Shown here one piece after another: positions 9,401-61,036 of a stretch of 64,000 nt of DNA. The position numbers were made by a program, and so were the translations under genes. Below the pieces are notes generated by a model that was not told the DNA's origin, did no database searches, and saw only the letters and a program-made list of their open reading frames with translations. Location: NCBI GenBank assembly GCA_038087875.1, contig CM075990.1, forward strand, positions 12,650,001-12,714,000. The letters run 5' to 3'. Positions within the stretch are counted from its first letter, which is position 1; the number at the start of each line of letters is the position of its first letter. This DNA comes from Malacoraja senta (taxonomy: Eukaryota).

Positions 9401-9761
9401 TTCTCCCCCCAATCTCCACCCCACCCATTCCCAGATAGAAATCCAATGACTTAATTCAATCCAATCACATTCTGCTGCCATCAATGTCCCTTTATTGTCA
9501 CATGTACCTAGATACAGTGATTATTTTTGTTTTGTATACAATTCAATAAAATCATACTATACATAAGCACATTTGTATACAAGTACAAAAAAAGTGCAAC
9601 GATTGTGGTGTGAGAACGGTAGACTTCACTGGGACATCGCAGTGAGACAGTCCCAGCGACATCTTGTACCCTTCAAGTTTTGTCTTAAAAATGTTACAGA
9701 AGGGCCTATTCCTTTTCTCCAGACTTGCTGCCTGACCTGCTGAGTTACTCCAGCATTTTGT

Positions 9762-9797
9762 GGGTCTGAAGAAGGATCTCGACCCGAAACGTCACCT
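9762..9797 (+). ncRNA. Putative minimal hammerhead ribozyme (one stem II mismatch)
   Basis: GGGT-CTGAAGA-A-GGATC-TC-GACCC-GAAAC-GTC-ACCT; stem I GGGU/ACCU pairs. Confidence 0.55.
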
Positions 9798-10027
9798 ATT
9801 CCTTTTCTCCAGAGATGCTGCCTGACCCGCTGAGTTTCTCCAGCATTTTGTGTCTATGTTAAAAATGTAGTGTCTTATCTTGGCCTCATAGGCCCGTTGT
9901 CATGGCGACGGTACTGGGTCGGTGTTGCAGGGGTTGGCCTGGCCTGCCGATGCCAACAAAGTCCTCCACCGTCTGATATAAGACATCTGTTCTCCCTCCC
10001 TCTCTCTCTCTCTTTCTCTCGTCACAG

Positions 10028-10239
10028 AGGCCTTCAGGATCGATGTGGACACAGCAGTGATCACTACCACAAGGCTCCTGGAATCCTACGAGAGGTTTAA
10101 CTTGACCGTTGTGGCCACGGATAAAGGCAGGCCGCCATTGTGGGGAACAACTCTGCTCAAGGTCGACGTGATCGATGTCAACGACAATCGACCTATGTTT
10201 GTGAGGCCCCCCAATGGGACGATACTACATATCATGGAG
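10028..10239 (+). CDS. CDH23: Cadherin-23 exon 54
   Basis: cag|AGGCC...ATGGAG|gtaat, 212 nt, phase 1 to 0; AFRIDVDTAVI...DVIDVNDNRPMFVRPPNGTILHIME. Confidence 0.95.
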
Positions 10240-10343
10240 GTAATAGGATGGGCTGGGACCTCTGTTTCACCGGCACTGAAACGCATTGGAATGTTGCCAA
10301 TCCCATGCCCAGGCCACATCATCGCAAAACATTCACAAGATTG

Positions 10344-10646
10344 TTTAGTTTAGTTTAGAGATACAGCACGGAAACAGGTCCTTCGGCCCACCGGGTCCGC
10401 GCCGACCAGCGATCCCCGCACATTAACACTATCCTACACCCACTAGAGACAATTTTTACATTTACCAAGCCAATTGATCTATAAACCTGTACGTCTTTGG
10501 AATGTGGGAGGAAACTGAAGATCTCGGAGAAAACCCAATGCAGGTCAGGGGGTGAACGTACAAACTCTGTACAGACAGCGCCCGTAATCGGGATCGAACC
10601 CGGGTCTTCCTCACTGGATTTGCTGTAAGGCAGCAACTCTACCGCT
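10344..10646 (-). mobile_element. V-SINE (HE1-like)
   Basis: Same family; partial copy also at about 10940-11110. Confidence 0.87.
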
Positions 10647-11174
10647 GACTTAATCCACCGTGTTGTCTCCAAGAAGCTGTTAAATCCGTTAAAATGCAGC
10701 ATTAGAATAAATTTCATTTCAGCACAGTTAGTGTGAAATGTGCTGGTGTTTTTATCAGGAAGTGTGGCTGACTCTAGACACGACTAGAGATGAAAGAGAC
10801 CTCAAGTCAAGTCAAGTTTGGAGGTCCAGAGAGTCAAGAGTATTTAACTGTCATATGTATCAGAACAACCAAATTCTTATTTACTGCAGCATAACAGGCC
10901 TGTAAAGGCAATAACTGTAGATGAGTCTTTTTTAGACTTTTCGAGATACAGTGCAGAAACAGACCCTTCGGCCTCACCGAGTCCGCGCCGACCAGCGATC
11001 ACCCCGTACACTAGCACTATCCTACACACTAGGGGCAATTTACAATTTTTACCAAAGCCAATTAACCTACAAGCCCGTACGTCTTTGGGGTGTGGGGGGA
11101 ACCGGAGCACATTATGAAAATGTTGGCGGGCGTGTGGGCAAGATAGGTGAAGTATGCATTGTGTTCCTTCCCAG

Positions 11175-11366
11175 GAGAGGGAGCCGGGCTTCAATGTGTA
11201 TGAGGTGCTGGCCACTGACAACGATGAGGGTGTGAACGGAGCTGTCCGCTACAGCTTCCTGAAGACAGCCGTCAACAGAGACTGGGAGCATTTCAACATC
11301 GACCCCCTCAGTGGTATCATCAACACCACAGCCAGGTTGGACAGGGAGAAGCAAGCCGTCTATAAT
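11175..11366 (+). CDS. CDH23: Cadherin-23 exon 55
   Basis: cag|GAGAGG...TATAAT|gtgagt, 192 nt; EREPGFNVYEVLATDNDEGVNGAVRYSFLKT...LDREKQAVYN. Confidence 0.95.
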
Positions 11367-12142
11367 GTGAGTCGAGAATTGTAGTCCTTGTACACACCCC
11401 GCAATATGGTGGGAGGAACTCGTCAGAAATCTATCCGTCAGCAAACACTGCCTGATTGTTTGTCGGAAGGAACTGCAGATGCTGGTTTACACTGAAGATA
11501 GACACAAAAAGTTGGAGTAACTCAGCATCTCCGGAGAAGAGGAATAGATAACGTTTCAGGTCGAATTGAAGAAGGGTCTCGACCCGAAACATCACCAATT
11601 ATTTTTCTCCAGAGATGCTGCCTGACCTGCTAAGTTACTCCAACTTTTTGTGACTGCCTCATTGTCTCTTGAGGTCCTGCTGATGGAGTGGGTTGAAGAA
11701 GGGGGTGAGGGTTCAAGGAGGCTCATGCAGAGCACGAACCCTTTGGGCAGAATGGCCTGCTTCTGAGCTATAATGGTCCATGAGAAACTCTGAACTGACT
11801 GACGATTAGAACGCTTCCTAGGTTTTGATGTGTAGCCTCCAAAGTGAGAGCACAGTACAATTAATAGTTTGCTTGTCTTGCACTGCTTACATGGTACATT
11901 GTAACTCTATATAACATCAATAGTAAGTGGACCAGAGAGCTGCAGACCATGGGAATAGGCCTTTCAGCCCACCTTGTCCATGCTGCCAAGTTGGTTTACT
12001 GGGCGAGTCCCATTTGCTTGCATTTGGTCTGGACATGAGCTAATTCAAACACAACTGTACAGCTTGGATACTGACCCAACTTCCAAACACACTTGCTGGA
12101 AGCCTTCTCCATTGGCCTCGAGCTTTTCACTTTGGAATTTAA

Positions 12143-12460
12143 AGCTCTGTCCCACTGTACGAGTTCATTCCAAGAGCTCTCCCGAGTTTAAAAAAAATCA
12201 AACTCGTGGTAAGCACGGAGAATGAATATAGCGGGTATGTCGGAGCTCGGGGACGTCTCTTAGCGCTAACGGCAGGTACTTGGGAAGACTCGCTAACGGC
12301 AGGTAAGCACGGGAAGATTCATGAAGATTTTTCAACATGTTGAAAAATGTCCACGAGAGCCCCGAGTACCGACGAGTGGCCATTACCGTAAATCTCCGAG
12401 TTCGAATCAGGGCAAACTCGGGAGAACTCTTGGAATGAACTCGTACCATGGGACAGGGCT
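12143..12460. mobile_element. Non-autonomous DNA transposon (MITE, PIF/Harbinger-like)
   Basis: TIR CTGTCCCACTGTACGAGTTCATTCCAAGAG / CTCTTGGAATGAACTCGTACCATGGGACAG, flanked by TTAA. Confidence 0.8.
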
Positions 12461-12564
12461 TTAACTCTGCATCTTTGTGATCCTGGTGTCAAAAAGAATG
12501 CAGACCCAAATCAGTTCCTTTCCAGGAACTTTGTAAGAAGAATGCAGACTATTTAATTGTAATG

Positions 12565-12878
12565 GGGCTGTCCCACTGTACGAGCTAATTCAAGAGTTCT
12601 CCCGAGTTTCCCCTGATTCGAACTTGGAGAATTACGGTAATAGCCGCTCGTAGGTACTCGGGGCTCGTGGACATTTTTCAACATGTTGAAAAATCTTCAC
12701 GAGTCTTTCTCGAGCTTACCGCATTTCCCGAGTACCTGCCGTTAGCGTTACGAGCCGCTAAGAGACGTCCCCGAGCTCCGACGTACCCGCTACGTACATT
12801 CTATGTGCTTACCATGAGTTTGATTTTTTTTTAAACTTGGGAGAGCTCTTGAATTAGCTCGTACAGTGGGACAGCCCC
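12565..12878. mobile_element. MITE, same family, opposite orientation
   Basis: TIR GGGGCTGTCCCACTGTACGAGCTAATTCAAGAG / CTCTTGAATTAGCTCGTACAGTGGGACAGCCCC; TAA flanks. Confidence 0.82.
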
Positions 12879-13243
12879 TTAACAGCAAGAAGACAGAGCC
12901 ACCCAGATACTCTCAATGACCTAAACCCACTGCATGTGCCGATCTCTCTCCCAACAGAGTCTCGGACTCCACCGCTGATGCAGTGCTTGTCTGATCGACT
13001 CGGTTGCACTCTGCATTTTGTCATCCAGCACTTTGATGACTGTGAACCTGTGCAGGACTAAGAGCGAGTCTAGACTCCACAAACAGCACAAAACTTCCTG
13101 GTAAACGCCAGATGATATCTCCAGCAAGGAAAGTTGCATTGTTATGAGCAGGAAGGAACTGCAGATGCTGGTTTACACTGAAGGTAGACATACAATGCTG
13201 GAGTAGCTCAGCAGGTCAGGCAGTATCTCTGGAGAAAAGTAAT

Positions 13244-13278
13244 AGGTGACGTTTCGGGTTGGAACCCTTCTTCAGACT
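13244..13278 (-). ncRNA. Putative minimal hammerhead ribozyme
   Basis: Minus strand GT-CTGAAGA-A-GGGTT-CC-AACCC-GAAAC-GTC-ACCT; compensatory T-A in stem II. Confidence 0.62.
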
Positions 13279-13541
13279 GAAGAAGGGTTCTGACCCAAAA
13301 CATTGCCTATTCCTTTTCTCTAAAGATGCTGCCTGACCTGCTGAGTTACTCCAGCATTGTGTGTCTATCTTGCATTGTTCTGAACTGTGTGTCTGATATC
13401 CAGAGGTAATTGCATGGGGACTTTATATTTGCTCCCTTTAAACAGGAAGTTGGGTGACTGTATGATGCCTTTAGTTATCACTGTGAAGGTAGAACGATTC
13501 CAGATGATGAGACTCATCGTTGATTCTTCTTTTCTCTTTAG

Positions 13542-13655
13542 CTCATTCTCCTGGCCTATGACCTGGGTCAGCCCGTTCCCTACGAGACCACACAGCTCCT
13601 GCAGGTGGCCCTGGATGACATCGATGACAACGAGCCACTCTTCCTCAAACCACCC
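13542..13655 (+). CDS. CDH23: Cadherin-23 exon 56
   Basis: tag|CTCATT...CCACCC|gtaag, 114 nt; LILLAYDLGQPVPYETTQLLQVALDDIDDNEPLFLKPP. Confidence 0.95.
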
Positions 13656-14451
13656 GTAAGGACAGTTCAGTGAACGAACCCAATCTGAACTCGTAGTTGG
13701 GTTCTGCAAACGCAGCCCGTTGTGCAGGGAAATTCTTGCTTCGGTTTAGTTCATGATCAGGTGCACCGAGATACAGTGAAAAGCTTTAGTTGGCCATTCA
13801 GCCCATCATTCCTGAGACGACTCCAAGATTAAAGTTAGTCCAAGTCGGTCTCCCCAGCCCTGCACTTACCCCTTCTGCCATCCTTCCAGGCAGTGTGTAC
13901 CTGGACGCAGCAGCTAGCTGAGAAAGATTCTTCTCAACTCTCCTCTGACCTGTTAGTTTGCCTGATATCTTAAAACTGCATCCTTTTCAAAGGCTGCATG
14001 CTTTGAGCTGCTCCGTTGCATCACCCAGAGTAAGTGGAAAGCATCTTCCCTTCATCTCCTTTGTCCCAAGGAGAACAATCGGACTTCTCTGAAAGCAATA
14101 AAGACGTGACTTCACTGAGATGGCGGAGCTGAGCGAAGCCGAGTTGTGGTTTCCCAGAGCTCGTTAGAAACGCTCGGATGATTTAGTGCCGTGCGGTGAC
14201 AGGGTTATGTGACATGAATCAAGTTTTTATGTTTATATTTTTCACGTGAAATGAGACAATGAGACAGGGCAAGAAGGGAGGTGGGAGTGACACGTCAGGG
14301 AGGTAACGATTGATGAGTGATCTGGAGACATGAACGGCAAGGCTGAACATCTGATGAAGACAGTGTCAGATTGCTGCAACAAACGTTGACCTTTACTGGC
14401 TCTGCAATCAAACAGCATAAGTCAGTGAACAGGGACTCTGCAATGGACTGC

Positions 14452-14768
14452 ATGGTGGCGCAGCGGTAGAGTTGCTGCCTCACAGCGCTTGCAGACCCGG
14501 GTTCGATCCCGTCTAAGGGTTCTGTCTGTACGGAGTTTGTACCTTCTCCCCGTGACCGCGTGGGTTTTCTCCGAGATCTTCGGTTTCCTCCCACACTCCA
14601 AAGACGTGCAGGTTTGTAGGTTAATTGGCTTGGTATAAAAAATGTAAATTGTCCCTAGTGTGTGTAGGATAGTGTTAGTGTGCGAGGATCGCTGGTAGGT
14701 GCGGACCTGGTGGGCCGAAGGGCCTGTTTCCGTGCTGTATCTCGAAACTAAATTAAACTAAACTAAAT
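14452..14768 (+). mobile_element. V-SINE (HE1-like)
   Basis: Same family, full length. Confidence 0.87.
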
Positions 14769-15344
14769 TGGGCTACATACGGATCGATTTCTGAAAGCTC
14801 TATTATATGCTGGATCAACTATTAATTTTTCTTCCCATATTTAGAGGAGCTTTGCATCTCCAATGGAAATTGTTCCTTTTTACCCTATTACCTGGGGTAC
14901 AGCGGTGCAGTGGTTAAGTTGTCAGTCTGAGTTCTGCACCATTGACCCAGGGATGCAAGTTCAAATCCCACCACGGCCACTGAGCAATTTGAGTTCAAGT
15001 ACTTAAATAAAGCATAGAATTCTGAAGCATGCAGCTAGACAGAGTAACAGTTGCTTTGAAATTGCTGGGTTAGAATAAAAGCTCAGAATAACAGCTCAGC
15101 CTCGTAGGATTCAACAGAGGAGACATTTCTTCGCTCAGTGGGAATGTGAATCTTCAGAGTTCTCTCGCCCAGGAACCTGTGCATGCTCAAGCCTCCAGGC
15201 CCATTTGTCGGGAACATGGAGAATATGGCAGATGGTGGGAAGGTGGAGTTGATGCGGAGGACGACTCACTGTCTTAGTGAACGGGGAGGGATGGTACAGG
15301 AAGCTGAATTGCTTCCTCCTATTCCTATTCCTTTTACCTTTCAG

Positions 15345-15655
15345 AGATTTTATTATTTATTTTTTTAATTTACATTTTTAAATTTTTATTTATTAGAAGT
15401 ACATTACATTACAACCAATTACATTAGTACTCGCCACGTATATCTTATTATAATTAATGTACTCCGTCATTTTTTACACTAATAGAAGGGAAAGGATGAG
15501 ATTGAGAGAAAGGAGAAAGTGAAGGAAAATAGTGAAAGTGTAAAAAACGTGACAACATGAAATAACAGAGACCCTGTAGAAAGAAATTTAAAAAAAGAAT
15601 TAAGAGATAGACCCTAAAGAAGAAGAAGAAAGAGAAAGAGGGAAAAGAGAAAAAC
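15345..15655 (-). mobile_element. L1 3'UTR/tail fragment
   Basis: TTTATTAGAAGTACATT end and purine-rich body match the reverse complement of the L1 tail at 27400-27780; similar piece at about 35470-35745. Confidence 0.6.
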
Positions 15656-16351
15656 CTTTCAGAGATTTCACACATTGAAACATGTCTTTATCATTCCTGT
15701 CGTAGCAAATTGCAAAGGTGTTTCAAATAAAAAGAGATGAATGGAAGAAGTATGAAATCTTTCAAAGAAAGGATGTCCATCATCTTATTAAATCCATAAA
15801 ACATTTCATAGAACACTGAAAAGTACAGATTTTGGAATTATTTAAGAAAATATACAAGTGAAAGAAAATTAGAAAATATTTTCAAAATGCAGAGACCAAC
15901 ATGAACTTTATTGTAAGCATTAGTCAAACAGTGTCCTTTGGCCCAACTTGCCCACAGCGACCAACATGCCCCACCTGCCTGCGTTTGGCCCATATCCCTC
16001 TAAACCTGTCCTATCCATGTACCTGTCTAAATGTTTTTTTTTTATTACAATAGTACCTGCTTCAACTACCCCGTCTGGCAGCTCGTTCCATGCACCCAGC
16101 ACCCTTTGTGTGAAAAAGTAACCCTCGCCTTAAACTTATGTCCTCTGGTTCTCGATTTCCTTAATCTGGACGAGAGTCTCTGTGCGTCTGCCCGATCTAT
16201 TCCTCTCATGATTTTATGCACCTCTATAAGATCACCCCTCACCCTCCGCGCTCCAAGGAATAGAGTCCTCGAACACGAGAGGATGTTTCACTTTCAGATA
16301 TTCTCACTGGCTTGATCTCTCTAACCTGCTGTGGTGTCCATCTTTTGTTAG

Positions 16352-16478
16352 AGAAGTTCGCAGTACCAGCGCCTCTTTGTGGCTGAGCACTCTGACCCTG
16401 CCACAGTCGTGGGGAATGTGACCGGAGCCATCGATGCGGATGAGGGGCCCAATGCCGTGGTCTACTACTTCATAGCAG
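16352..16478 (+). CDS. CDH23: Cadherin-23 exon 57
   Basis: tag|AGAAGT...GCAG|gtggg, 127 nt; RSSQYQRLFVAEHSDPATVVGNVTGAIDADEGPNAVVYYFIA. Confidence 0.93.
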
Positions 16479-16792
16479 GTGGGTTCCCAGCCAGTTGAGG
16501 TGTGCCTCATCATCTGTGTGAATCTTGTGTATTATGTCCAACTCCATCTGCAACTCTCCCTTCTTCTACTGATCTGACTGCACGGATCCTTGACCTGCTT
16601 TTTCATCACCCGTTCCTTCTCTCCAGAGATGCTGCCTGTCCCGCTGAGTTGCTCCAGCATTTTGTGGCTATCTTCGGTGTAAACCAGCATCTTCCTACCT
16701 ACAAACCTTCCTACAAACCTCTCAGTGTCTACTGAAATGGCCAAGGAAGGGGGCAATTAAGGTGGACAATAAATGTTGCCCTTGCAACTTTA

Positions 16793-17075
16793 AAGGGGAG
16801 GCCATTTAAAACTGAGATGGGGAAAAACTTTTTCACCCAGAGAGTTGTGAATTTGTGGAATTCTCTGCCACAGAAGGCAGTGGAGCCCAATTCACTGGAT
16901 GAAGTGAAAAGAGTTAGATAGAGCTCTAGGGACTAGCGGAATCAAGGGATATGGGGAGAAGGCAGGCACGGGTTACTGATTGTGGATGAACAGCCATGAT
17001 TACAATGAATGGCGGTGCTGGCTGGAAGGGCCAAATGGTCTCCTCCTGCACCTATGTTCTATGTTTCTCTGTTTC
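16793..17075 (+). mobile_element. CR1 LINE 3' end
   Basis: GAGAGTTGTGAATTTGTGGAATTCTCTGCCACAGAAGG...CTCCTGCACCTATGTTCTATGTTTCT tail. Confidence 0.82.
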
Positions 17076-18256
17076 TGTGCCAGGAACGGGTTAATGAAGG
17101 AACAAATGAAAATTCAACGTTTTGCTAATCCTTGCAGACTGAATGCGAACACATAATAATTAAAATCATCATTCCCTTCCCCATAATCACACTATGACCT
17201 TGCCTGCCTTACTTATGCAATGTCCCCCTACCCTATACAACACAGGATGCCATGTTCATATAACCCCTCTCTGTCCCCCGCCAGTAATTCTAATGCCTTT
17301 GACCACATGGTCTGGAACTTCAAATCCCAATCTCAGCCAATTTGTCAATCACATCCTTAATCTACAATTCCTGCCATTGTGTTCATTTCCATGTGCCGGG
17401 AAATTCTTTCAAGATTAAATCAATGATGTTGTTATCTTTGAGCATACGCCTTGCTTCTGTACCTTCACCTTCAATCTCTTCTTTCAACTCCAGAGGAGTG
17501 TCTCTGTCATAAAACTCTTTCCATTGTTACACCATTGACTGCTGGGTTATCAATTTGTTAAAGCATTGTGGAAACAACTGCTTAATCTATACAGGCGATA
17601 AGCAGATGAGTTATGTTGGGTTTGAGTTCAACTCTCCAGAATCAGCCTATAACCTTTCAGTATAATAAAGATTTAACTCCGGGTTATGAAGCAACATGGC
17701 TAAAAACCATGAGGCCAATATAAAGAAAAAAATATTGTAATTTCTTTCTTTGAATTTTGACTTTCGGTTGTTAAGAATAAATGAATATGGGAGAAAAATG
17801 TCCGCATGACTGGGAAGACCCTTCCAATTGCGTAATGACACAAAGGCAGCTTCAAATTAATGTGGGAAGACAGAGCTGAAACGAAACATATATCCGGCAT
17901 CCCAAAGACATGGACGTTGGGAGGTTAATTGGCCACTGTAAATTGTCCCACAGTGTAGGTGTGTGGTGGAACGGGGAAGATGCTGGGAATGCGGTGATTC
18001 TGAACTAGTGTAAGCGGATGTGGTTAATGCAGGTGGGTGCTTGATGGTCAGCATCGATGGTGGAACCTTGGGGCTCTCTGGGCAGTTGGAGACTTTAGTA
18101 ACAAAAGCTCTCACAACCAGAGTTGGCAAGCCCATATTGGTGGGGAAAATAAAGCAGGCAGCTCCCAACTTTAGAATCTGTCCTTGATGCAGCATTAGAA
18201 TATGATCTTAATGTGTTTGCATGGAAGGAAGTTCATTGAAATGTACTTCAACACAG

Positions 18257-18508
18257 CTGGAGATCCGGACAACAACTTTCATCTGAACAGGAATGGGCTT
18301 CTCAAGGTGGTGAAGGACCTGGATCGGGAAACGAACCCATTCTACACCATCATCGTCAAGGCCTCGAGCAACCGCAACTGGAGGTCTTCAAGGCAGAAGA
18401 GTCGGGTCTTTGACCCCAGCACCGACCTCACCCTCCAAGAGGTTCGGATCATCCTGGGGGACATCAATGACCAGCCACCGATATTCACCAAGTCAGAGTA
18501 CACCGCCG
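18257..18508 (+). CDS. CDH23: Cadherin-23 exon 58
   Basis: cag|CTGGA...GCCG|gtagg, 252 nt; GDPDNNFHLNRNGLLKVVKDLDRE...DINDQPPIFTKSEYTA. Confidence 0.95.
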
Positions 18509-18870
18509 GTAGGTTTCCTCACGTCTACACGTGTACGCGTTAGCGGCCGTTTGGGTAGGAGCCTCAATAGGGCAGAGATCTTTAGTTTAGTTTAGAGATA
18601 CAGCACGGAAACAGGCCCTTCGGCCCACCGAATCCACGCCGACCAGCGGTCCTGTACACTAGCATCTAGGGACATTTTTTTTACAATTTTACCAAACCAA
18701 TTAGATTATCAACCCATCCGTTTTTAGAGTGTGGGAGGAAAGCGTAACACCCGGGGGGAACTCACGGGGAGAAGGTACAAACAAATGTGTAAGCAACAGC
18801 AGTGATTAATAAGGGCGGTTACAGAAAAACTAATGGTGAGAAAACTTACATCAAATGTAGTGAGTTTTGG

Positions 18871-19627
18871 TTTTTTTTTTTTATTTTTTTTTTTTAATAT
18901 TTTTATTTTATTAGAAGTAAGTACAATTGTATACAATCATATTTTCATAATACCGTTTATGTACAGCTTCTTATTTTTTAAATTTTTTGTAATAAAGAAG
19001 AAAAAGAGAAAAGTTAGATAATGAAAAATAGAAAAATGTGAGATATATAGTGTGTGAAAAAGAAAAATAGAGAGTGAAAAAAGAAAGTTGAGACATAGAA
19101 AATAGAAGAAAGAGAGTAAAAGAAGAAAAGAGAAGAAAATAAAATAGAAGTAAGGAGATCATTTATAATCTTGACCATCCCCAGTCACGGATTAGCTTTT
19201 ACACTTGTGTTGCACCATATGTTTCCAAAAAGACGACAAATGGAGACCAACTCGTTATGAATTGGTCAAATTTATCTATTAGGAGGAATCGCATTTCCTC
19301 AAGATGTGCGGTATCCAACATACTTGCAATCCACATTTTGAGCGTTGGTATTGGTGTATTTTTCCAAAATTTCAATATTAATTTTTTTGCAATTATTAAA
19401 CCATAATTAAAAATTGACTTTTGAGATGGGTTCAATTTGTTCCCGTCTTCCATTACCCCAAATATAATCAATTCGTTATTGGGTTCCATTTTTGTCTTAA
19501 ATAATTTTGTAAATATTTTTCGAAAATATCACTCCAAAATCCATGAAGTTTTATACAAGAAACAAGAGTGTGTTATAGTTGCGTCTTGGGTTAAACATTT
19601 ATCGCAAATGGGCGATATATTGTGGTT
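18871..19627 (-). mobile_element. L1-clade LINE 3' fragment
   Basis: ORF 19199-19489 homologous to the C-terminus of the 26032 ORF (AKKLILKFWK..PIPT..W..HLEE); T-run tail on plus strand. Confidence 0.88.
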
Positions 19628-20398: not shown

Positions 20399-20560
20399 GT
20401 GTTGCCACTGATGCTAAAGTGAGCTCCGAACTGATCAGAGTAAAGGCCTATGATTCTGACATTGGAAACAACAGCCTCACCTTCTATCAGATCATTAACA
20501 TCCGCTACATCAAGCAGCAGTTCAATGATTCTGAAGATGTTGGGAATGTCTTCATCATTG
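20399..20560 (+). CDS. CDH23: Cadherin-23 exon 59
   Basis: cag|GTGTT...ATTG|gtagg, 162 nt; VATDAKVSSELIRVKAYDSDIGNNSLTFY...DSEDVGNVFII. Confidence 0.95.
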
Positions 20561-23058: not shown

Positions 23059-23182
23059 GTAAGTTCCCCCACTCTGGCCAAGAGATTCTGTGCCTCTTCC
23101 CAATTTATTCCTCTCATACAGCTGATGTGTAAATCACGCGTCAATTCTCCATCGCTGAACCGCTGCGTGTTTGTATTTACAG

Positions 23183-24474: not shown

Positions 24475-24496
24475 GTAATGCATCATTGGCTGGCTT

Positions 24497-27803: not shown

Positions 27804-27811
<8 letters not shown>

Positions 27812-50827: not shown

Positions 50828-51121
50828 TTAGTTTAGAGATACAGCGCAGAAACAGGCCCTGCGGCCCATTGAGTCCACGCCGACCTCACAGTAACACTAA
50901 ACACACTTGGGACAATTTACAATTTTTACCAAAGCCAATTAACCTACAAACCTGGACGTCTTTTTTGAAGTGTGGGAGGAAGCCAGAGCACCTGGAGAAA
51001 ACCCACGCAGGTCACGGGGAGAGCGTACAAACTCCGTACAGACAGCATCCGTAGTCAGGATCGAACCCGGGTCTCTGCCGCTATAAGGGATCAACTCTAC
51101 CGCTGCGCCACCGTGCCGCCC
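50828..51121 (-). mobile_element. V-SINE (HE1-like)
   Basis: Same family, full length. Confidence 0.87.
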
Positions 51122-51439
51122 TACTTGCTACTACTCATCTGAGTAATTCAGCAATGAATGAGTTGATCTGTTTGCATGCATCTATGATGACGCCTATTAA
51201 AATGAGATGTGTTCCCGGAGACTTCACAAGGTGATAGGGCATGATCTCCGAATTATTGTAAGTGTACTGCCTCGGTGAGGTCTGCTACATGATTTTACCG
51301 GGTTACACGCAAAACAAAGCATTTCACTGACAATAACGTATCATTGAATCATTATTTCTAATGAGTAAATATTGCTACATCATAATAGATACATGCTCAC
51401 AATTAATCATAATCCAAAAGCCCGATCATATTGCCCTAC

Positions 51440-51547
51440 CTCAGCAGGATAGGTGGCTGATTGAGAAACTGCACCAGCCATTGATCCTGCAAGGAATCTC
51501 TCTTTCATTTGCAGATTTTGTGGATCAGCTGCAATTATACCCTTTAG
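51440..51547 (-). CDS. SCaMC-like carrier exon 7 equivalent
   Basis: cag|CTAAAG...GCTGAG|gtagg, 108 nt; LKGIIAADPQNLQMKERFLAGSMAGAVSQSATYPAE (not in ORF track). Confidence 0.92.
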
Positions 51548-51951
51548 CTGTAAACACATTTCAAAACCGTCAAGTAGTTAAAAGTTCTGTTGTTAAAAAT
51601 GTCACAGAAAGTACATCCAGTTGGCTTTCTAGTTTAATATTTTTATTCAGTACTTATAAGCATCGTGTAACACTACACCGTCGAGCCGTGTCCATCAAGA
51701 CTCGACACGATAAAGAATGGACACAAGAAGGGTTTCGGCCCGAAACATTGCCTATTTCCTTCGCTCCATAGATGCTGCTGCACCCGCTGAGTTTCTCCAG
51801 CACTTTTGTCCACCTGTCGGCACCCTTACTTTCAACAGTAAGGTTCATCTCTGTGTAGGAAGGAACCGGCAGATGCTGGTTTAAACCGAAGATAGACACA
51901 AAAAGCTGGAGTAACTCAGCGGGATAGGCAGCATCTCTGGAAAGAAGGAAT

Positions 51952-51987
51952 GGGTGACATTTCGGGTCGAGACCCTTCTTCAGTCTG
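51952..51987 (-). ncRNA. Putative minimal hammerhead ribozyme, sense to the carrier gene
   Basis: Minus strand CTGAAGA-A-GGGTC-TC-GACCC-GAAAT-GTC-ACCC. Confidence 0.5.
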
Positions 51988-53633
51988 AAGACCTGAAGCG
52001 TCACCCATTCCTTCTCTCCAGAGATGCTGCCTGTCCCACTGAGTTACTCCAGGCTCATCTCTTTTATCTCCTAAAGGTGACTTAGGGGGAAACAAGCTTG
52101 AAGCAGTAGAATGTTATTTAACTCCCAAAGCCCATCAATTGACTTTTCTTGGCTAATTCAAGATCTAGATATTGCTGTCAAAACCAACATTTATTACCCA
52201 CCCCTGAAAGCCCTTCAGGAGATGCTAGAGGGTCACTTTCTTGTAGTTATAGTCCTTCTGGTGAACATTTCCCCAAAATATTGATGACCAAGTTCCAGGA
52301 TTTAGCCCTTTTGAGTCCTTGCCTTGTAGATGGTAGAAAGGCTTTGTGTGTCAGGAGGTAAATCACAGAGGGGAGGATAAGCAGGTTCTGATCCTCTCTT
52401 GTAGCCACAGTATTCATTGCGGGTGCTCTACATGACATCTTGGTCAATGCTGCTATGAGGATGTTGTTGGTGAGAGATTTGGTCAACGTTAATGCCATCA
52501 AATGCAATGGGCAGCTTCTCTCTAGTTGGGGAGGGTTATCACCTGCTATTTTCTACAGTATAAATGTTACCTGCCACTTATCAGCCCATGCCTGAACATT
52601 TGTCTTGTTGCACGCAGGCAAGAGCGGTTGCATTTGCTGACGAGGTGCCAATGGAATTAAACATTGTGAAATCAGAGATCGTCTGACCTCACGGAAGGAA
52701 GATCAATGATGAAGCAACTGTAGATAGTTGGGTCCAAGACACACTTCCATATGCATCAATATCATGCCATAAGTGATAGGAGTAGAATTCGGCTACTCAG
52801 CCATTCAACCAAGGCTGATGTATCTCTACCTCCTAACCCCATTCTCCTGCCTTCTCTCCATAACCTCTGACACCTGTATATCCATATATATTCTCCCCGT
52901 AACCTCTGACACCTGACATCTCTAATGTCTTTAGTTTACAAACCTCAAATTAAAAAATAAGTTTTGCTCAGAAAATATCTAAACTTCCACCATTCTTTAC
53001 AAGTAGAGCTTCATCCTAACTTCAACCGAAAAGCCTAGCTCTAATTTTTAGGCAACTTCTGCTGGTCCTAAAGTCCTCAAAAAGCATAAAGAGTTACTTC
53101 CCATACATACTAATCACTCCCATTAGCTTCAAGATTGCAATATTGTAATTGAAGTCATTAACACTTTGACTGACCCATGTAATTGCAGCTCGTTAGGAAG
53201 AGAGGAAAGAAAAACTACTGAGGTCAGGGTCTAATTGGTGTGTGGAGCCACAAGAGACCACAGATGCTGCAATCTCGAACAAAACGCAAAGTGCTGGAGG
53301 AACTCAGCGAGTCGAGCACCATCAGGGGAGAGAATGGACAGGTGATGTTTTGGGTCCCAACCCAAAACGCCATCAGTCTATTCCCTCCACAGATGCTGGC
53401 TGATTCACTGAGTTCCTCCAACAGTTTGTGTTTGCTTTTAATTGCTATATGGTCAGTTAAGTTTGTAAACTTGAATGTTCTCCTCCACTTTCGGCTCCAG
53501 CTAAGATGTATCTAACACACCTGCGATAAAGCAGAATGTCTTGATGCACTACATAATGTCTTTCAGTTTTTAAACAGTTAGGTATAATAAGTAATAAAAT
53601 ACAAAACTACAGTGAATATATGCCTGCCCATAC

Positions 53634-53786
53634 CTCTTCATAAGCCATGAACTTAATGGCAAGCTCTGGGCAAATTTTGATAATGTTAGTTAGATTTCCT
53701 CTCCACATTGAACTGAAACCTCCTTCTGCTATCATTTGCTTTATGCCACTCAATATATTTATCTTGTTCTCTCGTGTAGAATAAAC
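53634..53786 (-). CDS. SCaMC-like carrier exon 6 equivalent
   Basis: tag|GTTTAT...GAAGAG|gtatg, 153 nt; VYSTRENKINILSGIKQMIAEGGFSSMWRGNLTNIIKICPELAIKFMAYEE. Confidence 0.92.
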
Positions 53787-54109
53787 CTAGAGAAATAGGT
53801 ACAAAAATAAGCTTTATTCGGGTAACTATAGGTCCAATAGATAGTGCTGATGAAGTGCGTGCACACACCCCCACATTAACTACAGCTGGTTTAAAACAGT
53901 GGATCAACAAAAAAGTCAGAGGAATCATTTGATATTGGGGTCACAATTTTCCTTTAAAAGTGCTAAATGAGTCGAATATGTCTGTGTCAGCTCTTTAGTA
54001 GACCTATCCAATCTACAAAATGGATGGAGTGCTTTGGCTTCTGACAAGTCACTTAACCCAATATAGCACTTTTGCAATGTTCAGGTTTATTTGTCATTGG
54101 CACAAGTCT

Positions 54110-55280
54110 GATGAGGTACACACTCCTTTTCATAGACTACAGCTCTGCTTTCAATGCCATTATTCCATCCAAGCTCATGCTCGTGGAACTTGGAGTCAGC
54201 ACTCCCTCACCTTTGCAACTGGATTCGCGACTTCCTGACCAACGGACCACAATCAGTGAGGATGGGTGACAAATCATCCTCTATGCCAACCCTCAAGACT
54301 GGTGCCCTGCGAGGATGTCTTCCCAGCCCCTTTCTTTTATCTTTACGCACCCACGACTGTGCAGCCTAATACAAATCCAATTCAAGTTACAAATCCGAAA
54401 AGGACACACCCAGAGTGGGCTGGATATCAAATCAGGAGACTGAGAACCTTGTAACCTGGTGCCAGGACAACAATCTGTCCCTCAATGTCAGCAAGGCAAA
54501 TGAGATTGGGATTGACTTCAGGAAGTGAAACGGTACACTTACCCTGGTATATACATTGACAAAGTATATACCAGGGTGCTGAAGTAGAGATGGTTAAAAC
54601 CATCAAGTTCTTAGAAGCAAATATCAGCAGCTAACCTATCTTGGACTAGCCATATAGAAGCGATGGCCGAGAAAGCACACCAACGCCTCTACTTCCCTAG
54701 AGACTTAGGAAGTTCGGCATGTCCCCAATAACTCTCACCAACTTCTACATGCACCATAGAAAGCATTGTATTGGGAATCATCACAGCATGGTTCAGGAAC
54801 AGCTGCATCCAAGACTGCAAGAGGTTGCAGAGAGTTGTGGACTTAGCCCAGACCATCATGCAAACCAATGCCCCTTCCATTTACTGCATCTACAGTTCAT
54901 AATCAAAGACGAGTCCTCACCCTGGTCACTCCTCCTCCTGCCCTCTCCCATCAGACAAGCGGTACAGAAGTGTGAAAACGCATTCCTCCAGATTCAGGAA
55001 CAGTTTCTTCCCAGCTGTTATCAGGTAACTGACCATCCTATCACCGATGAGTGCAGTCCTGACCTACCATCCACCTCACTGGAGACCCCCAGACTATCTT
55101 CAATCAGACTTTATTGAGCTTTATTTTGCTTGATTATGTACTATTCCCTTTATCCTGTATCTGTACACTGTGGACAGCCTGATGGTAATCAAGTATAGAC
55201 TTTTGGTGACTGGATAGCACGCAACAAAAAGCTGTTCACTGTATCATGGAACATTTGACAATACTAAAGTGAACTAAACT
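54110..55280 (+). mobile_element. Rex1/Babar-like LINE RT fragment, degenerate
   Basis: [33 protein letters not shown] and LPSGRR-like segments in shifting frames. Confidence 0.8.
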
Positions 55281-56527
55281 AAAACCTTGCCTGAAAAGAT
55301 TTTTTTGAAAGGCTTTCAATATATTAGAGAAAACAACTTAGGAAGAGAGCCTTGCAGTGCTCAGTAGCTCCATAAATATATATTCCCTTTATCATGTATC
55401 TTTATGCTGCGAATGGCTTGATTGTAACCTGTATTGTCTTTCCGCTGACTAGTTAGCATGCAACAAGAGCTTTTCATTGTACCTCGGTACACGTGACAAT
55501 AAACTAAACTAAACTAAACAAAGACGTCAATGTTTTAAGAATATGTGAATCTTAGTTATGGCTTCAATAAAGGTAGTTCTGCTATAACGTTCCCTTAAGA
55601 CGAATTGGATATAAGGCGAGTGATCGAGTGATGAATTAGAGAACACGGGCTGAACTGACTATAATGCGATTTTAAACAAGATCTAGAGAACCACTTAAAA
55701 GTTACTTTGGAATGTGACAAACAGAAAGAAAAGCTATCTTGGATTCAAACTGTATGTGGGGTGGGGGTCAGGGGAAACTTGTTTCCATGTAACCTACCAG
55801 TATTAATCAGATACCATTTTCTCTTAATAAACCAGCTGCCACTAACTGTGGTGGTCATTAAATTTGACAAGCAGTCGCTTCTATTGACACGTACTTCAAT
55901 ACTCTGTTACATGATGTTACATATTTTGCTGTAATAAAAATAACTTATTGCTATTAAAAAGACCATCTTTGAAAATCTTGTGAGAAAAGTAAAATAGACA
56001 ATAGACAATAGACAATAGGTGCAGGAGTAGGCCATTTGGCCCATCGAGCCAGCACCGCCATTCAATGTGATCATGGCTGATCATCTCCAATCAGTACCCC
56101 GTTCCTGATTTCTCCCCATATCCCTTGACTCCGCTATTTTTAAGAGCCCTATCTAGCTCTCTCTTGAAAGCATCCAGAGAACCTGCCTCCACCGCCCTCT
56201 GAGGCAGAGAATTCCACATATTTTGCTGTAATAAAAATAACTTATTGCTATTAAAAATTACTTATTGTTAAAAACTGCGTTATTATCTCTCGCCCCTAAC
56301 CCCCTATTACCTATTGAGACATTTGCCGTTGTCATACAGCATGGAAACAGGCTCTTCAACCCAACATGATGGCTTTATAACACGATTTTCCTCACCAGGT
56401 TTTCTAGGACGCAACTATTGCTTTACAGCAGAATCCGTGACTCCAAACCAGCAAACACAACAGGATCATTAACACGCTTGGGAAGCATAAATACGTAAAT
56501 TGTAGACACGAGCAATGAGCGTTCTAC

Positions 56528-56683
56528 CTGCATTAGCACTCTTAGACGATCAAAAGGGGCGGTGACAGTTCGTGAAGTTGCTCCAGCTGTGCCTCCTGCA
56601 ATCAGATGCCCCCACCACTTCTCTGGTTCCTGATTCTCCAAGAATTCGTCACAGTTGGTTATATCGTCGTTGATAGAAAAGAT
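56528..56683 (-). CDS. SCaMC-like carrier exon 5 equivalent
   Basis: cag|ATCTTT...ATGCAG|gtaga, 156 nt; IFSINDDITNCDEFLENQEPEKWWGHLIAGGTAGATSRTVTAPFDRLRVLMQ. Confidence 0.92.
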
Positions 56684-57925
56684 CTGTGAAGGTTTATGAT
56701 GAAAGAAAGCATTAAGATGGTAAAGTGACTATTTTTGTAGGTGCTTCCATCATAGGTTAATGTTAAAAGCTCAAATCCTCTGGAACTACCGCCATTTAAC
56801 TTGTGCATGCAGGACCTTCCTGTGTGGAATAAACTGGAGGTACAGACCCTGTTCAAGACTGGAGCACAAATAATGTAGGCATTAAACTCTTCTATTCTTT
56901 GGGAGGAGCTATCCCTCAAATAAGATGTTATTCAGGCCCCTTCTGTTCTCTCAAGTGGACATATGACATCCATATCCCCAATATCCTGACCTATATTTAT
57001 CTTGTGTTCAATATCACACTGCAACTTGGTGAACTTTGTACCTTGGCTGCCACACCTCTAATCCTAATGCACTTCAAAAGTACTTTAACAGATGCAAATC
57101 GGTTCAGGATGGTTCAAATCTATAAATGCTATTTCTTTCAAATGAAATATCTTTTTCTATCATATGTTAGGATTGAACAGACCCAACACCAATATTATTA
57201 TGACAGCGAGATTAAAAGAGATTACACCATTTATATACACGAATCCTATAATTTCTGTCATCTCGATACTTTATAACTTGCAAATCCATTTTTCAAGGAA
57301 GAATTAATGATCCGTGTGATTCTAACTAATCTCAAAGCAAATAACTTACAACCCATTCAATCCATAACCCCATCCATTTTAGGATACAGACCACGTTGAA
57401 CTATACTATTATTAAGAATAAAGGGGAGGCCATTTAGGACTGAGATGAGGAAAAACGTTTTCACCCAGAGAGTTGTGAATCTGTGGAATTCTCTGCCACA
57501 GAAGGCAGTGGAGGCCAATTCGCTGGATGTATTCAAGAGAGAGTTAGATATAGCTCTTAGGGCTAACGGAATCAAGGGATATGTGAAGAAAGCAGGAATT
57601 AGGTACTGATTCTGGATGATCAGCCGTGTTCATATTGAATGGCGGTGCAGGCTCGAAGGGCCGAATGGCCTACTCCTGCACATAGTTTCTATAAACTACC
57701 TTCATCAGTGGGAGTGAATCTGTCCAGCTGCAGACTCTAGATACATGTACATTTCATCATGGCACAAGCAGTCACAGAGCATTTAATCATTATCCAGTCA
57801 CTTGGCCTCCAGCCTTCTGTGGCAAAGAATTCCACAGATTCACCACCCTCTGAATTAAGAAATTACTCGTTATCTCCTTCCTAGAGGAAAGACCTTAAAT
57901 TCATCAATGTGCATACAATACTTAC

Positions 57926-58037
57926 ACTATTATTTCTCCAGACATCAATCATTTTTAGCATATTTTCCTCTTTGTCTGTTACATAGATTTTCCACCATTT
58001 GTTCCAGTCCATGTCCATATATATATCGTTGTCCAAG
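57926..58037 (-). CDS. SCaMC-like carrier exon 4 equivalent (degenerate EF-hand 4 plus amphipathic helix)
   Basis: cag|CTTGG...AATAGT|gtaagt, 112 nt, phase 2 to 0; LDNDIYMDMDWNKWWKIYVTDKEENMLKMIDVWRNNS. Confidence 0.87.
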
Positions 58038-59822
58038 CTGGTGAATTTTGAGAGAGCGACAGCAGTTTTTGGTTTCTTGCCATATTCTGTGCCATTTTAC
58101 TAAATACATACATTTATACCCTCAAAACATTTATTTTTCTCATTTATTCAAGGCAATGAAACATAGGTTTGTGCTTTCCAAGTTTATAATCTTACAATAC
58201 TGTTCTAGCCAAGGAAGAGAACCTGGCTAGAATACTAGCCAGTGTCTCCAGCAATTGAAACCCATTCTCCCCCCACTAATCTTTCAGTTACACATTCATT
58301 TCTCTAATCTTATTTTACACACTATGGCAATTTGCACATAGCTCGGGTAGTAACTGAGAACATCCCCTTTATAAGTTGTACTTTAACTGTTCATTTCTCT
58401 AATCTTATTTACATACCATGGCAATTTGCAGATAGCTCAGGTAGTAATTGAGAAATTGAGGCCATAGCCTCAGAATTTAAGGACTTTCCTATAGGAAGGA
58501 GATAACGAGGAATTTCTTTAGTCAGAGGGTGGTGAATCTGTGGAATTCTACTACAAATTCTACTACAAATCTCAAATTGTGGAGTACAGAGGAAAATAAA
58601 TAAATGATGAGTCTTTGTCCCAAACATTATGGAGGGGACTGTATAAATGCAACCAGGTAGGGTTTTTAAAGCAGTATGGCCTACCAGGGAGGAAGCAGCG
58701 TGTGACCCTTTTATGTTGGGGAATGAGCATGGGCGAGTGGTGGAACTCTCTTTGGTCTGAAGAAGGGTCTCGACCTGTAATGTCGTCCATTCCTTCTCTC
58801 CAGAGATGCTGCCTGTCCCGCTGAGTTACTCCAGCATTTTGTGTCTATCTATCTGGACAATGTTTTGGTCCTTATTCTGTCCGTGTTACCAACCAAAACA
58901 TCTTTACATCTTTGCCTCCACAGATGCTTCCTGACCCACCGAGCACTTCCAGCGATCTGTATCTTGTTTAAAAAAGATTCCCAGTGTTTTGATGTGATCT
59001 TACTGGATTATCTCATCTGTGTCTTGTGAATCGCCCTTTCATCCACCATTACGCAATGCAAATTTAGTTTAACGGTAAAGCAAATCATTCACTTATTCGA
59101 ACTCTTAAGTTTATTTATCGGCATGGGTATCATTGACAAAGCCAGCATTTATCCCACATTCTTAATTGCATTTGGTTCCATAAATTCATGTTAGAGAAGA
59201 AGAATTAGGTCATTCGGCCCATTGAGTCTACTCCACCAAACAATCATGGGTGATCAATCTTTCTCACCCAACCCCATTATCCTAACCATTGACACCCGTA
59301 TTAATTAAGAATCCATCTATCTCTGCCTTAAAAATATCCATTGACTTGGTCTCCACAGCCTTCTGTGGCAATGAATTCCACAGATTCACCAGCCCCTGAC
59401 TAAAGAAATTCCTCCTCATCTCCACCCTAAAAGAACGTCCTTTTATGCTGAGGCTGTGGCCTCTGGTCCTTGACTCACCCCACGTCTGCTCTACCTGGGC
59501 CTTTCACGATTTGGTAAGTTTCAATGAGACCCCACCCCCTCATTGTTTGGCACAATAGAGGGATTTGTTTAATCAATTCATAGAGTCAACCATGTTGCAT
59601 TGGCTGCATGGTTGTTCACAGGTGAGATCAGATAAGAACTGCAGTTTACTTTACCATCTGTGAGCCAAATGAGTTCTGGAATTTCACAAAAAAAAAAAAA
59701 TTCTAGATCCCATAATTAGCTGAATTTAATTTCACTAACTACCATTGCAGAATTGTAACTCCTGCCTAAGAATAATTAGCACAGATTTCTGGATCCAGTA
59801 ATTGAATTGCTACGCTACTTAC

Positions 59823-59910
59823 TGTAGTTTAATCTTTTTCGCTTGGTAGAAACCAAGACTGACATGTAGTTTTCCCATGAGTTGAATAATCTTCAATGTT
59901 CCAACTTTGC
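59823..59910 (-). CDS. SCaMC-like carrier exon 3 equivalent (degenerate EF-hand 3)
   Basis: tag|GCAAA...CTACA|gtaagt, 88 nt, phase 1 to 2; KVGTLKIIQLMGKLHVSLGFYQAKKIKL; phases fit both neighbouring exons. Confidence 0.82.
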
Positions 59911-61036
59911 CTACAAATTTAACAATATAATAGCAAAACAGTGCAGATGATAAAAATATGAAATTAACGTAGAAAAAAATGGAAGCATTAATTTCCCCAC
60001 CTCACAGGCGCTACTTGATATCTTGGAGTTTTAATTCACGCTAAATTTGCTTCCAAACAAAAAGGTAGAGGCTCCAAATTTGAAATAGAAACCGTGCTAA
60101 ACACTCACCACATGAAACAGCTGATGTAGGTAGTGTAGTCACAAGGAACTGCAGATGCGAGTTTACAGAAAAGGATACACAGTGCTGAAATAACTCAGCG
60201 GGTCAGGCAGCATCTCTGGAGTACATGGATTGGGGAGCACGCTTGTACCTCCAACCAGCTGCCAAATGAAAAAACCCTCCTCACCTGTATTCACCTACCA
60301 CTTGCCAGACTTTGTCCTGTCCCCACCTCTCCGCCAGCTTCACACATCATCCCACCCCCCCCACACACACACACACACAATCAGTCTGAAGAACTGTTAC
60401 ATGAACCTCTCCACGTTCTCCAGAGATACTACCAGACCCACTGAGCTCCCAAGCACTTTGTGACATTTTTGGGTATAGAAAGTGCAAGCTTCAGGTCAAT
60501 GATCTTCCTTCAGAAAGTATACGGGAGGCTCTTGAGAAACTGGACAAGCTGGATGAAGAGGGCACTGAAGCATTTTGTTTCACAGGTGGGACAATGCCGA
60601 CCTAAAGACATTTAATGCTCATTCTCTTATCGCCACTGGGAAAGTAAGAGTCAGCATGTAATGGGGACTAAAGTCAGAAAAGGGCCAGGAAAGAGAAAGA
60701 GAAAGATGAGCCATTTGTTTATTATTGGCATTCTACCAGATGTCATTGTTATTTGGTGCCAGATTTATTACATTTCATTATCTTAAGCAAAAACAAATCA
60801 CAGGATTAGCTATAAATACAGGTATCTCTCCAGACCCACTCACCACCCGCAGCCCAAGTGCCCCTTTAAACAACACAATATGGGCTAATTAGGTTTTGAA
60901 ACGATAGAAAACAGTGTCGCAGAGTGCAATGCTGTATCACCTACAAAGCCATGTTCATGCTGAACACAAATTGCACTTTCACAGTGGACAAGCTGATGGG
61001 CTATTTCAATGGCAACCATTTCACTGGCAGACTCAC

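What the first reader, a model, noticed from the sequence alone, without database searches (positions are those of the whole stretch)
9700..60460. Abundant Penelope-derived repeat family carrying minimal hammerhead ribozymes
Seen: about 15 copies of one short repeat family, many with CTGAAGA-A-[stem II]-GAAAC-GT(C/T): near 9762, 11565, 13244, 32402, 37012, 40420, 43332, 44490(-), 47666, 47791, 51724, 51952(-) and 58754. Stem II varies while keeping pairing (GGGTC-TC-GACCC, GGGTT-CC-AACCC, GGGT-TTCG-GCCC). Established: CUGANGA/GAAA/NUH is the hammerhead core, an extra A after A9 occurs in natural hammerheads, and Penelope-like elements carry minimal type I hammerheads with a short palindromic stem III that cleave as dimers; here that palindrome is ACGU/AACGUU. 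Several copies lie sense within introns of both genes. Many show CpG-type decay (CGAAAC->CAAAAC, ACGT->ACAT). Inference: a very high-copy ribozyme-bearing retroelement family whose intact copies might cut pre-mRNA.
Basis: partly seen in the sequence, partly recalled or inferred. Interest (0 to 1): 0.72.

Follow-up and report, generated by a model that had tools for sequence, protein, structure and literature searches.

The report
Penelope retroelement ends with minimal hammerheads
The repeat is real and very abundant, and it matches the published dimer-type self-cutting RNA motif found at the ends of Penelope-like jumping genes; most copies here are broken, and the few intact ones likely do not cut the host genes' RNA.

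Summary
Confirmed, and undercounted: 34 arms in 19 loci. The majority sequence (CUGAAGA-A, 4-bp stem II, GAAA-CGU-H) fits the published minimal hammerhead consensus of Penelope-like elements (PLEs; PMC4209133). The insertions show the PLE signature: head-to-head inverted arms, a 30-40 nt tail on one arm, target-site duplications, and once an ORF stop 82 nt upstream that resembles a PLE endonuclease end (not confirmed by database search). Only 4 of 15 aligned arms keep the whole core and the ACGU palindrome; CpG decay hits catalytic G12 about as often as a loop CpG. Stem II shows no covariation above shuffles. Intact sense-intronic copies lie only in CDH23 (two, 22.6 kb apart), none in the SLC25 gene. 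24 of 34 arms begin upstream of the cut site, so their template RNA was uncut; 5' ends cluster just before CUGA instead. 35,380 contigs of one run match. Cleavage was not tested. The scan noted the same kind of motif before in shark genomes. Verdict: new member of a known kind; pre-mRNA cutting unlikely.

The parts
32262..32323 (+). Last ~19 codons and stop of the element's ORF (..LGSLYPSGMYIDFSNFR*), likely the end of the GIY-YIG endonuclease
   Evidence: Translation; a related contig end differs at 5 of 5 shared residues by silent changes only (table 7, X20, 2 contigs); resembles the L.T[IL].P.G.N ends of PLE endonucleases in the supplement of PMC8557442; database searches negative
32324..32403 (+). 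Pyrimidine-rich linker ending in CAG (looks like a 3' splice site or an initiator; untested)
   Evidence: Sequence; 79% like 43249-43333 region; no clean GT..AG joint among 15 of 19 joints shown
32403..32434 (+). Core-intact minimal hammerhead, subfamily B (UUCG loop, GUU triplet), sense in a CDH23 intron
43182..43430 (.). Inverted insertion: short tailed arm (-) plus long tail-less arm (+) with core-intact hammerhead at 43333-43364, cut site after 43362; flanked by a target-site duplication; between the two genes' stop codons
9695..9862 (+). Head-to-tail pair, 90 nt apart, inside a 9-bp duplication; first unit lacks stem II and GAAA; second (C3 9766) keeps the core but has an A-C mismatch in stem II; sense in a CDH23 intron
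13148..13370 (.). Inverted insertion joined at CAG-T-CTG; the tailed - arm (C3 13275) is core-intact but pairs with the other arm; 14-bp duplication with one mismatch
   Evidence: stem II probability 0.00 in context, hairpin -137 to -158 kcal/mol
3204..3392 (.). Inverted insertion joined inside stem II, no CUGAAGA; exact 17-bp duplication
11460..11653 (.). Inverted insertion, tailed - arm and tail-less + arm, core broken; 12-bp duplication with one mismatch
20790..20941 (.). Inverted insertion, tail-less - arm (C15.2 changed) and short tailed + arm; 15-bp duplication with one mismatch
29615..29760 (.). Short inverted insertion without the hammerhead part
32658..32769 (.). Short inverted insertion without the hammerhead part; exact 14-bp duplication
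16604..16700 (+). Tailed arm beginning at about the cut site
37012..37113 (+). Decayed single arm
40390..40625 (.). Three nested decayed arms (+,-,+)
44433..44525 (-). Decayed arm (A9 and C15.2 changed)
47664..47899 (+). Two decayed arms in tandem, antisense in an SLC25 intron
51720..52052 (.). Decayed + arm, then an inverted insertion whose tailed - arm (C3 51983) is the only sense arm in SLC25 with CUGA..GAAA; C15.2 is changed to U and the arm pairs with its partner
53255..53442 (.). Older inverted insertion joined in stem II
58754..58976 (+). Two decayed arms, the first starting 2 nt before CUGA
60135..60477 (.). Older inverted insertion with another linker; hammerhead partly deleted
2707..41037 (+). 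Host gene 1, cadherin-23 (3' part; exons seen from 2707 to the stop at 41037)
   Evidence: Cadherin domains; 22792-23055 matches Cadherin-23 chain 8tri_A, E 5.7e-41
45835..61178 (-). Host gene 2, mitochondrial carrier (likely SLC25A23/24/25 type; paralogue not tested), convergent with gene 1
   Evidence: Mito_carr hits in four exons; frames

Best explanation
These are short, 5'-truncated insertions of the terminal repeat (pLTR) of a Penelope-like retrotransposon family, whose sequence matches the known minimal type I hammerhead and which likely act as inert, decaying relics in the host genes. Shown: sequence match to the published consensus; inverted two-arm insertions with target-site duplications; two classes of 3' end (about 80-103 and 113-130 nt after C3); CpG decay of catalytic positions. 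Inferred: the element's RT-endonuclease nicked both target strands and primed cDNA at two internal sites of its RNA, 30-40 nt apart, as shown in vitro for an Anolis PLE (PMC11167929), which would give one tailed and one tail-less arm joined at short palindromes (TCAG-T-CTGA or stem II). Inferred: in the source element two hammerheads pair through the ACGU palindrome to make helix III and would cut after GUC/GUU, slowly and probably with the element's protein. Inferred: most templates were uncut, as 24 of 34 arms start upstream of the cut site. After insertion the copies are under no selection, and the two CpGs that carry G12 and the helix III pair disable them quickly.
For: Consensus fits CUGANGAH-G..C-GAAAN-palindrome-NUH of 56 metazoan examples, which include zero-loop C-G-U-C cores and 2-bp helix I cases such as Culex, Oikopleura and D. 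virilis. 3 descriptor hits against 0.03 in shuffles. Inverted arms, tail on one side and duplications (7 of 19 loci score 9 or more, 9-17 bp) are the PLE anatomy described. ORF end with silent-site divergence 82 nt upstream of C3. Non-CpG core sites vary less than the 3' flank (9 of 178 against 200 of 1441, P=0.0005), but not once subfamily-variable columns are dropped (100 of 1155, P=0.11): subfamily differences spare the core, later decay does not. In run X1, G12>A 9.6%, G16.2>A 7.4%, loop CpG C>T 7.7% of summed depth (40 of 58 rows shown). Predicted stem II pairing in genomic context is 0.00 for 9766, 13275 and 32405 and at most 0.28 for 43335.
Against: No full-length element, RT or endonuclease domain was seen; the ORF remnant found no true relative in four searches (with 63, 65), so PLE identity rests on anatomy and a short motif. 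No covariation signal in the window. Downstream blocks are as invariant as the core, so core conservation is not specific. The folding model lacks hammerhead tertiary energy and undervalues any hammerhead. The two RNA-labelled runs show less G16.2>A (3.7% and 0.9%) than the DNA-like runs (7.4%, 8.7%), which could mean intact copies are over-represented in RNA, though these are depth-weighted contigs and 'RNA' is a guess. No cleavage assay was possible.
Confidence: 0.85

Rival explanations
1. Intact intronic copies pair up, within one pre-mRNA or between transcripts, into double hammerheads and cut host pre-mRNA, dampening or tuning expression.
For: Two core-intact sense copies lie in CDH23 (9766, 32405) with the same ACGU palindrome; the family is very abundant and present in RNA-labelled runs (1672 and 609 contigs); retrozymes are under-represented in Xenopus introns (bioRxiv 10.64898/2026.07.22.740005).
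Against: The two copies are 22.6 kb apart and one has a stem II mismatch; designed dimers score -6 to -7 kcal/mol against -21 to -27 for competing dimers; no sense depletion here (16 sense, 15 antisense arms); published minimal hammerheads are inactive alone and weak as dimers, need protein, and 8 of 9 Xenopus dimers did not cut.
Confidence: 0.07
2. The short copies are a non-autonomous, SINE- or retrozyme-like family made from a short RNA that starts (initiator-like TCAGTCT) or is spliced (pyrimidine tract plus CAG) just before the hammerhead, and is mobilised by PLE protein in trans.
For: 12 of 34 arms start within -7 to +3 of C3 (three rows corrected by eye); contig ends with unrelated flanks pile up at 32402-32403 in X1 (178, 210) and X10 (317, 369); a 90-nt head-to-tail pair sits in one duplication at 9695-9862; the D. 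virilis intron ends at helix I.
Against: The same spot is a short palindrome where inverted arms join, which explains part of the cluster; 5 arms extend further upstream into linker or ORF; no clean splice joint among the 15 of 19 joints shown; contigs cannot show RNA starts, and the reference's divergent linker favours breaks near there. This reading is compatible with the best explanation and only refines it.
Confidence: 0.25
3. The hammerhead likeness is a coincidence or a dead vestige: a purine-rich stretch and a hairpin in a repeat that never self-cleaved in this lineage.
For: Helix I is 2 bp, covariation is absent, competing folds dominate, and templates were mostly uncut.
Against: Eleven core positions, the extra base after A9, G10.1-C11.1 and the palindromic helix III all match the published consensus at the expected place in a PLE end; both subfamilies keep them.
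Confidence: 0.08

Closest known systems
Minimal hammerheads (min-HHR) in pLTRs of metazoan Penelope-like elements (Cervera and De la Pena 2014, PMC4209133)
   Same: Core CUGANGAH, G10.1-C11.1, GAAA-C-G-U-H with no loop 3, short helix I, pyrimidine-rich 5' flank, mostly single dispersed motifs from truncated elements, some pairs on opposite strands.
   Different: Helix I of 2 bp and stem II of 4 bp are at the short end of the published range; no shark, skate or ray is among the species in their alignment (supplement parts 1-2 of 3 read); local density (19 loci in 64 kb) points to far more copies than their 4,000-9,000 motifs in coelacanth and Xenopus (extrapolation).
Poseidon element of Anolis carolinensis (PAc; Frangieh et al. 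2024, PMC11167929)
   Same: Hammerhead about 100 nt upstream of two 3' ends separated by a 30-40 nt tail; uncut RNA as template; both target strands extended.
   Different: No protein or activity data here; clade (Neptune or Poseidon) not determined.
Non-LTR retrozymes (bioRxiv 10.64898/2026.07.22.740005)
   Same: PLE-derived short units with a type I hammerhead; reported in one chondrichthyan.
   Different: Their definition needs tandem units each with a full hammerhead; here no tandem pair has two intact motifs, and most insertions are inverted pairs or single arms.

Membership tests
Minimal type I hammerhead of PLEs | Core CUGANGA, GAAA, NUH in type I order | tested here: met
   Majority sequence and 4 of 15 aligned arms complete with palindrome
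Minimal type I hammerhead of PLEs | One extra base between A9 and 10.1; G10.1-C11.1 pair; stem II | tested here: met
   G-C in 14 of 15 arms; 4-bp stem
Minimal type I hammerhead of PLEs | Palindromic 15.1-16.1 segment allowing a dimer helix III | tested here: met
   ACGU, no loop; same as many rows
Minimal type I hammerhead of PLEs | Helix I | tested here: inconclusive
   Only 2 bp (third position paired in 4 of 15); typical is 3-5 bp but 2-bp cases are published
Minimal type I hammerhead of PLEs | Covariation in stems | tested here: inconclusive
   Not above shuffles in 15 closely related arms; too little diversity to test
Minimal type I hammerhead of PLEs | Self-cleavage as a dimer | not testable with these tools
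   No assay; only contigs were held for the runs found
Endonuclease-bearing Penelope-like element | Inverted 5'-truncated arm, 30-40 nt tail at one end, target-site duplication | tested here: met
Endonuclease-bearing Penelope-like element | ORF with telomerase-like RT and GIY-YIG endonuclease | tested here: inconclusive
   Only ~19 C-terminal codons present; silent-site divergence and motif likeness; searches negative
Endonuclease-bearing Penelope-like element | Clade (Neptune, Poseidon) by RT phylogeny | not testable with these tools
   No RT in the window and no genome held
Non-LTR retrozyme | Tandem units each with an intact type I hammerhead | tested here: not met
   Tandem pairs at 9695, 47664 and 58754 have at most one intact core

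The most novel reading that the evidence does not exclude
One PLE family has seeded this genome so densely with mutually compatible half-ribozymes that any two intact sense copies in a long pre-mRNA (here 9766 and 32405 in CDH23), or in two different transcripts, can assemble a double hammerhead and cut introns: a genome-wide, transposon-made RNA cleavage network that the host keeps in check through CpG decay of the catalytic G.
Probability: 0.05. Interest if true: 0.7.

Novelty: new member of a known kind. Interest (0 to 1): 0.2.

Why it matters
It extends the known PLE minimal hammerhead to a very high-copy family in what is likely a cartilaginous fish. The value is as material, not as a surprise: tens of thousands of dated copies make it easy to test what PLE hammerheads do (are intact cores avoided in sense introns? 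do insertions ever begin at the cut site?) and to test in vivo the two-site priming model proposed for PLE tails.

Tried and rejected
Rfam: no hammerhead family among 11 matches at E<=5; the microRNA-precursor hits, all far below gathering scores, include the inverted insertions folding as hairpins; no match is expected because Rfam models need a helix III (own knowledge). Own genome: none held. Exact pattern scans: 0 in metagenome contigs, 0 in viral contigs, 1 in prokaryote genomes, which has no flanking likeness and is taken as chance. ORF remnant: no Pfam hit, none of 3 candidates scored, one repeat-summed hit to an unrelated repetitive protein, only sub-0.9 Atlas hits. Run search: no RNA holder listed on record. 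Splice idea (GT at 32320 to AG at 32403): no clean joint among 15 of 19 shown; neither supported nor excluded. Cut-site hotspot of 5' ends: only 3 of 34 arms start at +26 to +29. One search used misplaced helix I columns and the first dimer energy used an impossible 2-nt loop; both were redone. Paper searches for a chondrichthyan PLE hammerhead and a supplement search found no description of this family; only the retrozyme preprint includes one chondrichthyan, and its supplements could not be seen and may list this family. Lunse et al. 2017 (RNA Biol 14:1499) was not held; I saw only its title and a review's passages on it, so its ~150,000 variants (recalled) may include this one. Repbase/Dfam were not available.
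Full report
Setting. The window is eukaryotic (no genome held). It has two convergent genes: cadherin-23 on + up to a stop at 41037 (cadherin domains; 8tri_A, E 5.7e-41) and a mitochondrial carrier on - down to 45835. That the host is a cartilaginous fish is my inference from recalled repeat signatures and from two earlier notes of this scan on the same kind of motif in shark genomes; it was not tested.

Observation. An HMM from window copies gives 36 hits at E<0.5, 34 at E<1e-3, in 19 loci, and none on the reversed window. The majority sequence is CAG-U-CUGAAGA-A-GGGU-CUCG-ACCC-GAAA-C-G-U-C-ACC followed by about 65 nt or about 100 nt. A second subfamily has GGGU-UUCG-GCCC and GUU-GCC. Of 15 arms aligned over the core, 4 keep all 11 core positions, H17 and the ACGU palindrome: 9766+, 13275-, 32405+, 43335+; arms that start inside or after the core were left out of that count. 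Three pass a full descriptor, against 0.03 per shuffled window (30 shuffles); 9766 fails on a stem II mismatch.

Hammerhead anatomy. Cervera and De la Pena (PMC4209133; main text parts 1-2 of 4 and supplement parts 1-2 of 3 read) define a minimal hammerhead with no helix III loop, an extra base after A9, G10.1-C11.1 and a palindromic 15.2-16.2, found in PLE terminal repeats; their consensus CUGANGAH..GAAAN-palindrome-NUH fits this repeat. Helix I is 2 bp here (G-C, U-A or U-G; third position paired in 4 of 15); their alignment has 2-bp cases (Culex, Oikopleura, D. virilis).

PLE anatomy. Many loci are two arms joined head to head. By eye and by alignment the 3' ends fall into a short class (about 80-103 nt after C3) and a long class (113-130); in 9 clear inverted loci (3204, 11460, 13148, 20790, 29615, 32658, 43182, 51853, 53255) one arm has the tail and the other does not. 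Seven of 19 loci have flanking duplications scoring 9 or more (9-17 bp, 0-1 mismatch). Inverted truncated copies, a 30-40 nt tail at one end, short duplications and palindromic junctions are the described marks of PLE insertions (passages of PMC8557442, and PMC3846280). In vitro an Anolis PLE protein cuts and extends both target strands, starts reverse transcription at two internal sites that bound the tail, uses uncut RNA, and its hammerhead cuts only with protein (PMC11167929, parts 1-2 of 4 read). Priming from both strands at those two sites would give the structure seen here; this step is inferred. One copy reaches back to an ORF end..LGSLYPSGMYIDFSNFR* at 32270-32323. A related contig end reads IFRLGSLHPE in frame, differing at all 5 shared residues by silent changes (2 contigs). 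It resembles endonuclease ends such as LATIYPYGLN in the supplement of PMC8557442, but no database search confirmed it.

Abundance and decay. The stretch 42700-43900 shares words with runs labelled as seven organisms (shares of about 0.2 were not all laid). Laying four runs on 32240-32510 placed 35,380 (X1), 36,042 (X10), 1672 (X18) and 609 (X20) contigs. That is no copy number, but with 19 loci per 64 kb it points to at least tens of thousands of copies (inference). Among the 40 of 58 difference rows shown, those inside the hammerhead are the two subfamily sites and the CpG sites: in X1 loop C>T 7.7%, C11.1>T 7.2%, G12>A 9.6%, G16.2>A 7.4%; in X10 14.9, 8.4, 9.0 and 8.7%. The catalytic G is not spared. 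In the window, non-CpG core sites differ in 9 of 178 cells against 200 of 1441 in the 3' flank (P=0.0005), and against 100 of 1155 when 12 of 61 subfamily-variable columns are dropped (P=0.11; arms are not independent). This fits selection in the source elements and neutral decay in the copies. Against this, the two RNA-labelled runs show fewer G16.2 changes (3.7%, 0.9%).

Where arms begin. From, with three rows that aligned to a neighbouring arm corrected by eye, 24 of 34 arms begin upstream of the cut site, so their template was not cut at that hammerhead; 3 begin at +26 to +29; 12 begin within -7 to +3 of C3. Contig ends with unrelated flanks also pile up at 32402-32403 (only the best-supported rows are shown, 793 are not). 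The spot is at once a small palindrome used as an inversion junction, an initiator-like TCAGTCT (consensus recalled) and a pyrimidine tract ending in CAG; the D. virilis intron ends at the same position of its hammerhead (intron and promoter passages). No clean splice joint was seen among 15 of 19 joints shown. The cause is open.

Could it cut pre-mRNA? Arms are 13 sense and 7 antisense in CDH23, 3 sense and 8 antisense in SLC25, 3 between the genes. Core-intact sense arms are 9766 and 32405, both in CDH23, 22.6 kb apart. Predicted stem II pairing in context is 0.00 for 9766, 13275 and 32405 and up to 0.28 for 43335; the purine-rich core pairs with the downstream CCUAUUCCUU, and inverted insertions fold into long hairpins (-50 to -158 kcal/mol). 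Designed double hammerheads score -6 to -7 kcal/mol against -21 to -27 for rival dimers; such models omit tertiary contacts, so this is weak evidence. Published minimal motifs were inactive alone and weak as dimers, and 8 of 9 Xenopus dimers did not cut, though one cut very well (bioRxiv 10.64898/2026.07.22.740005, parts 1-3 of 5 read). I put host-RNA cutting at about 5-7%.

Verdict. I found no paper on this family (listings only for papers not cited above), but closed supplements, Lunse et al. 2017 (not seen) and repeat libraries may hold it. Interest 0.2.

Noticed in passing
window 62063-63668 (-): Tc1/mariner element with 225-bp inverted ends (95% complementary); transposase in two frames split by one stop, HTH and DDE_3 hits.
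   Followed up: partly
window 25435-27366 (+): AT-rich LINE ORF2 fragment (RVT_1, zf-RVT) with a long open frame, inside a CDH23 intron; L1/Tx1-like by recall.
   Followed up: partly
window 12125-12480 and 33100-33405: Palindromic MITE-like element with long terminal inverted repeats, two copies; family not identified.
   Followed up: partly
window 942-1290, 4015-4380, 5746-6110, 6259-6540, 10339-10600, 14482-14763, 18581, 50822, 61323 and others: Very abundant tRNA-like SINE ending in TAAAC-type repeats, and LINE 3' ends (4447-4986, 6628-7165, 47132-47632, 55999-56222) sharing a stem-loop; recalled as typical of cartilaginous fishes.
   Followed up: no
window 32411-32444 (tables 5, 5c): Many contigs in X1 and X10 go back about 33 nt, a tandem duplication of stem II through the cut site without CUGAAGA; some copies elsewhere carry it.
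   Followed up: no
window 9695-9862: In this head-to-tail pair the upstream unit's 3' end extends helix I of the second unit to 6 pairs including G-U pairs; 58754 also starts GGTCTG. May be a retrozyme-like relic or chance.
   Followed up: partly
window 9807-9860, 51853-51940 and other arms: Blocks downstream of the hammerhead (CTCCA, ATGCTG, CTGAGT, CTCCAGCA) are as invariant across subfamilies as the core; candidates for the protein-binding and priming signal.
   Followed up: no
window 32050-32255: Just upstream of the ORF remnant: an (ATT)n run, TATATAAA, TCAGTCTGATGAG and AATAAA; another repeat end, not passing the hammerhead descriptor.
   Followed up: partly
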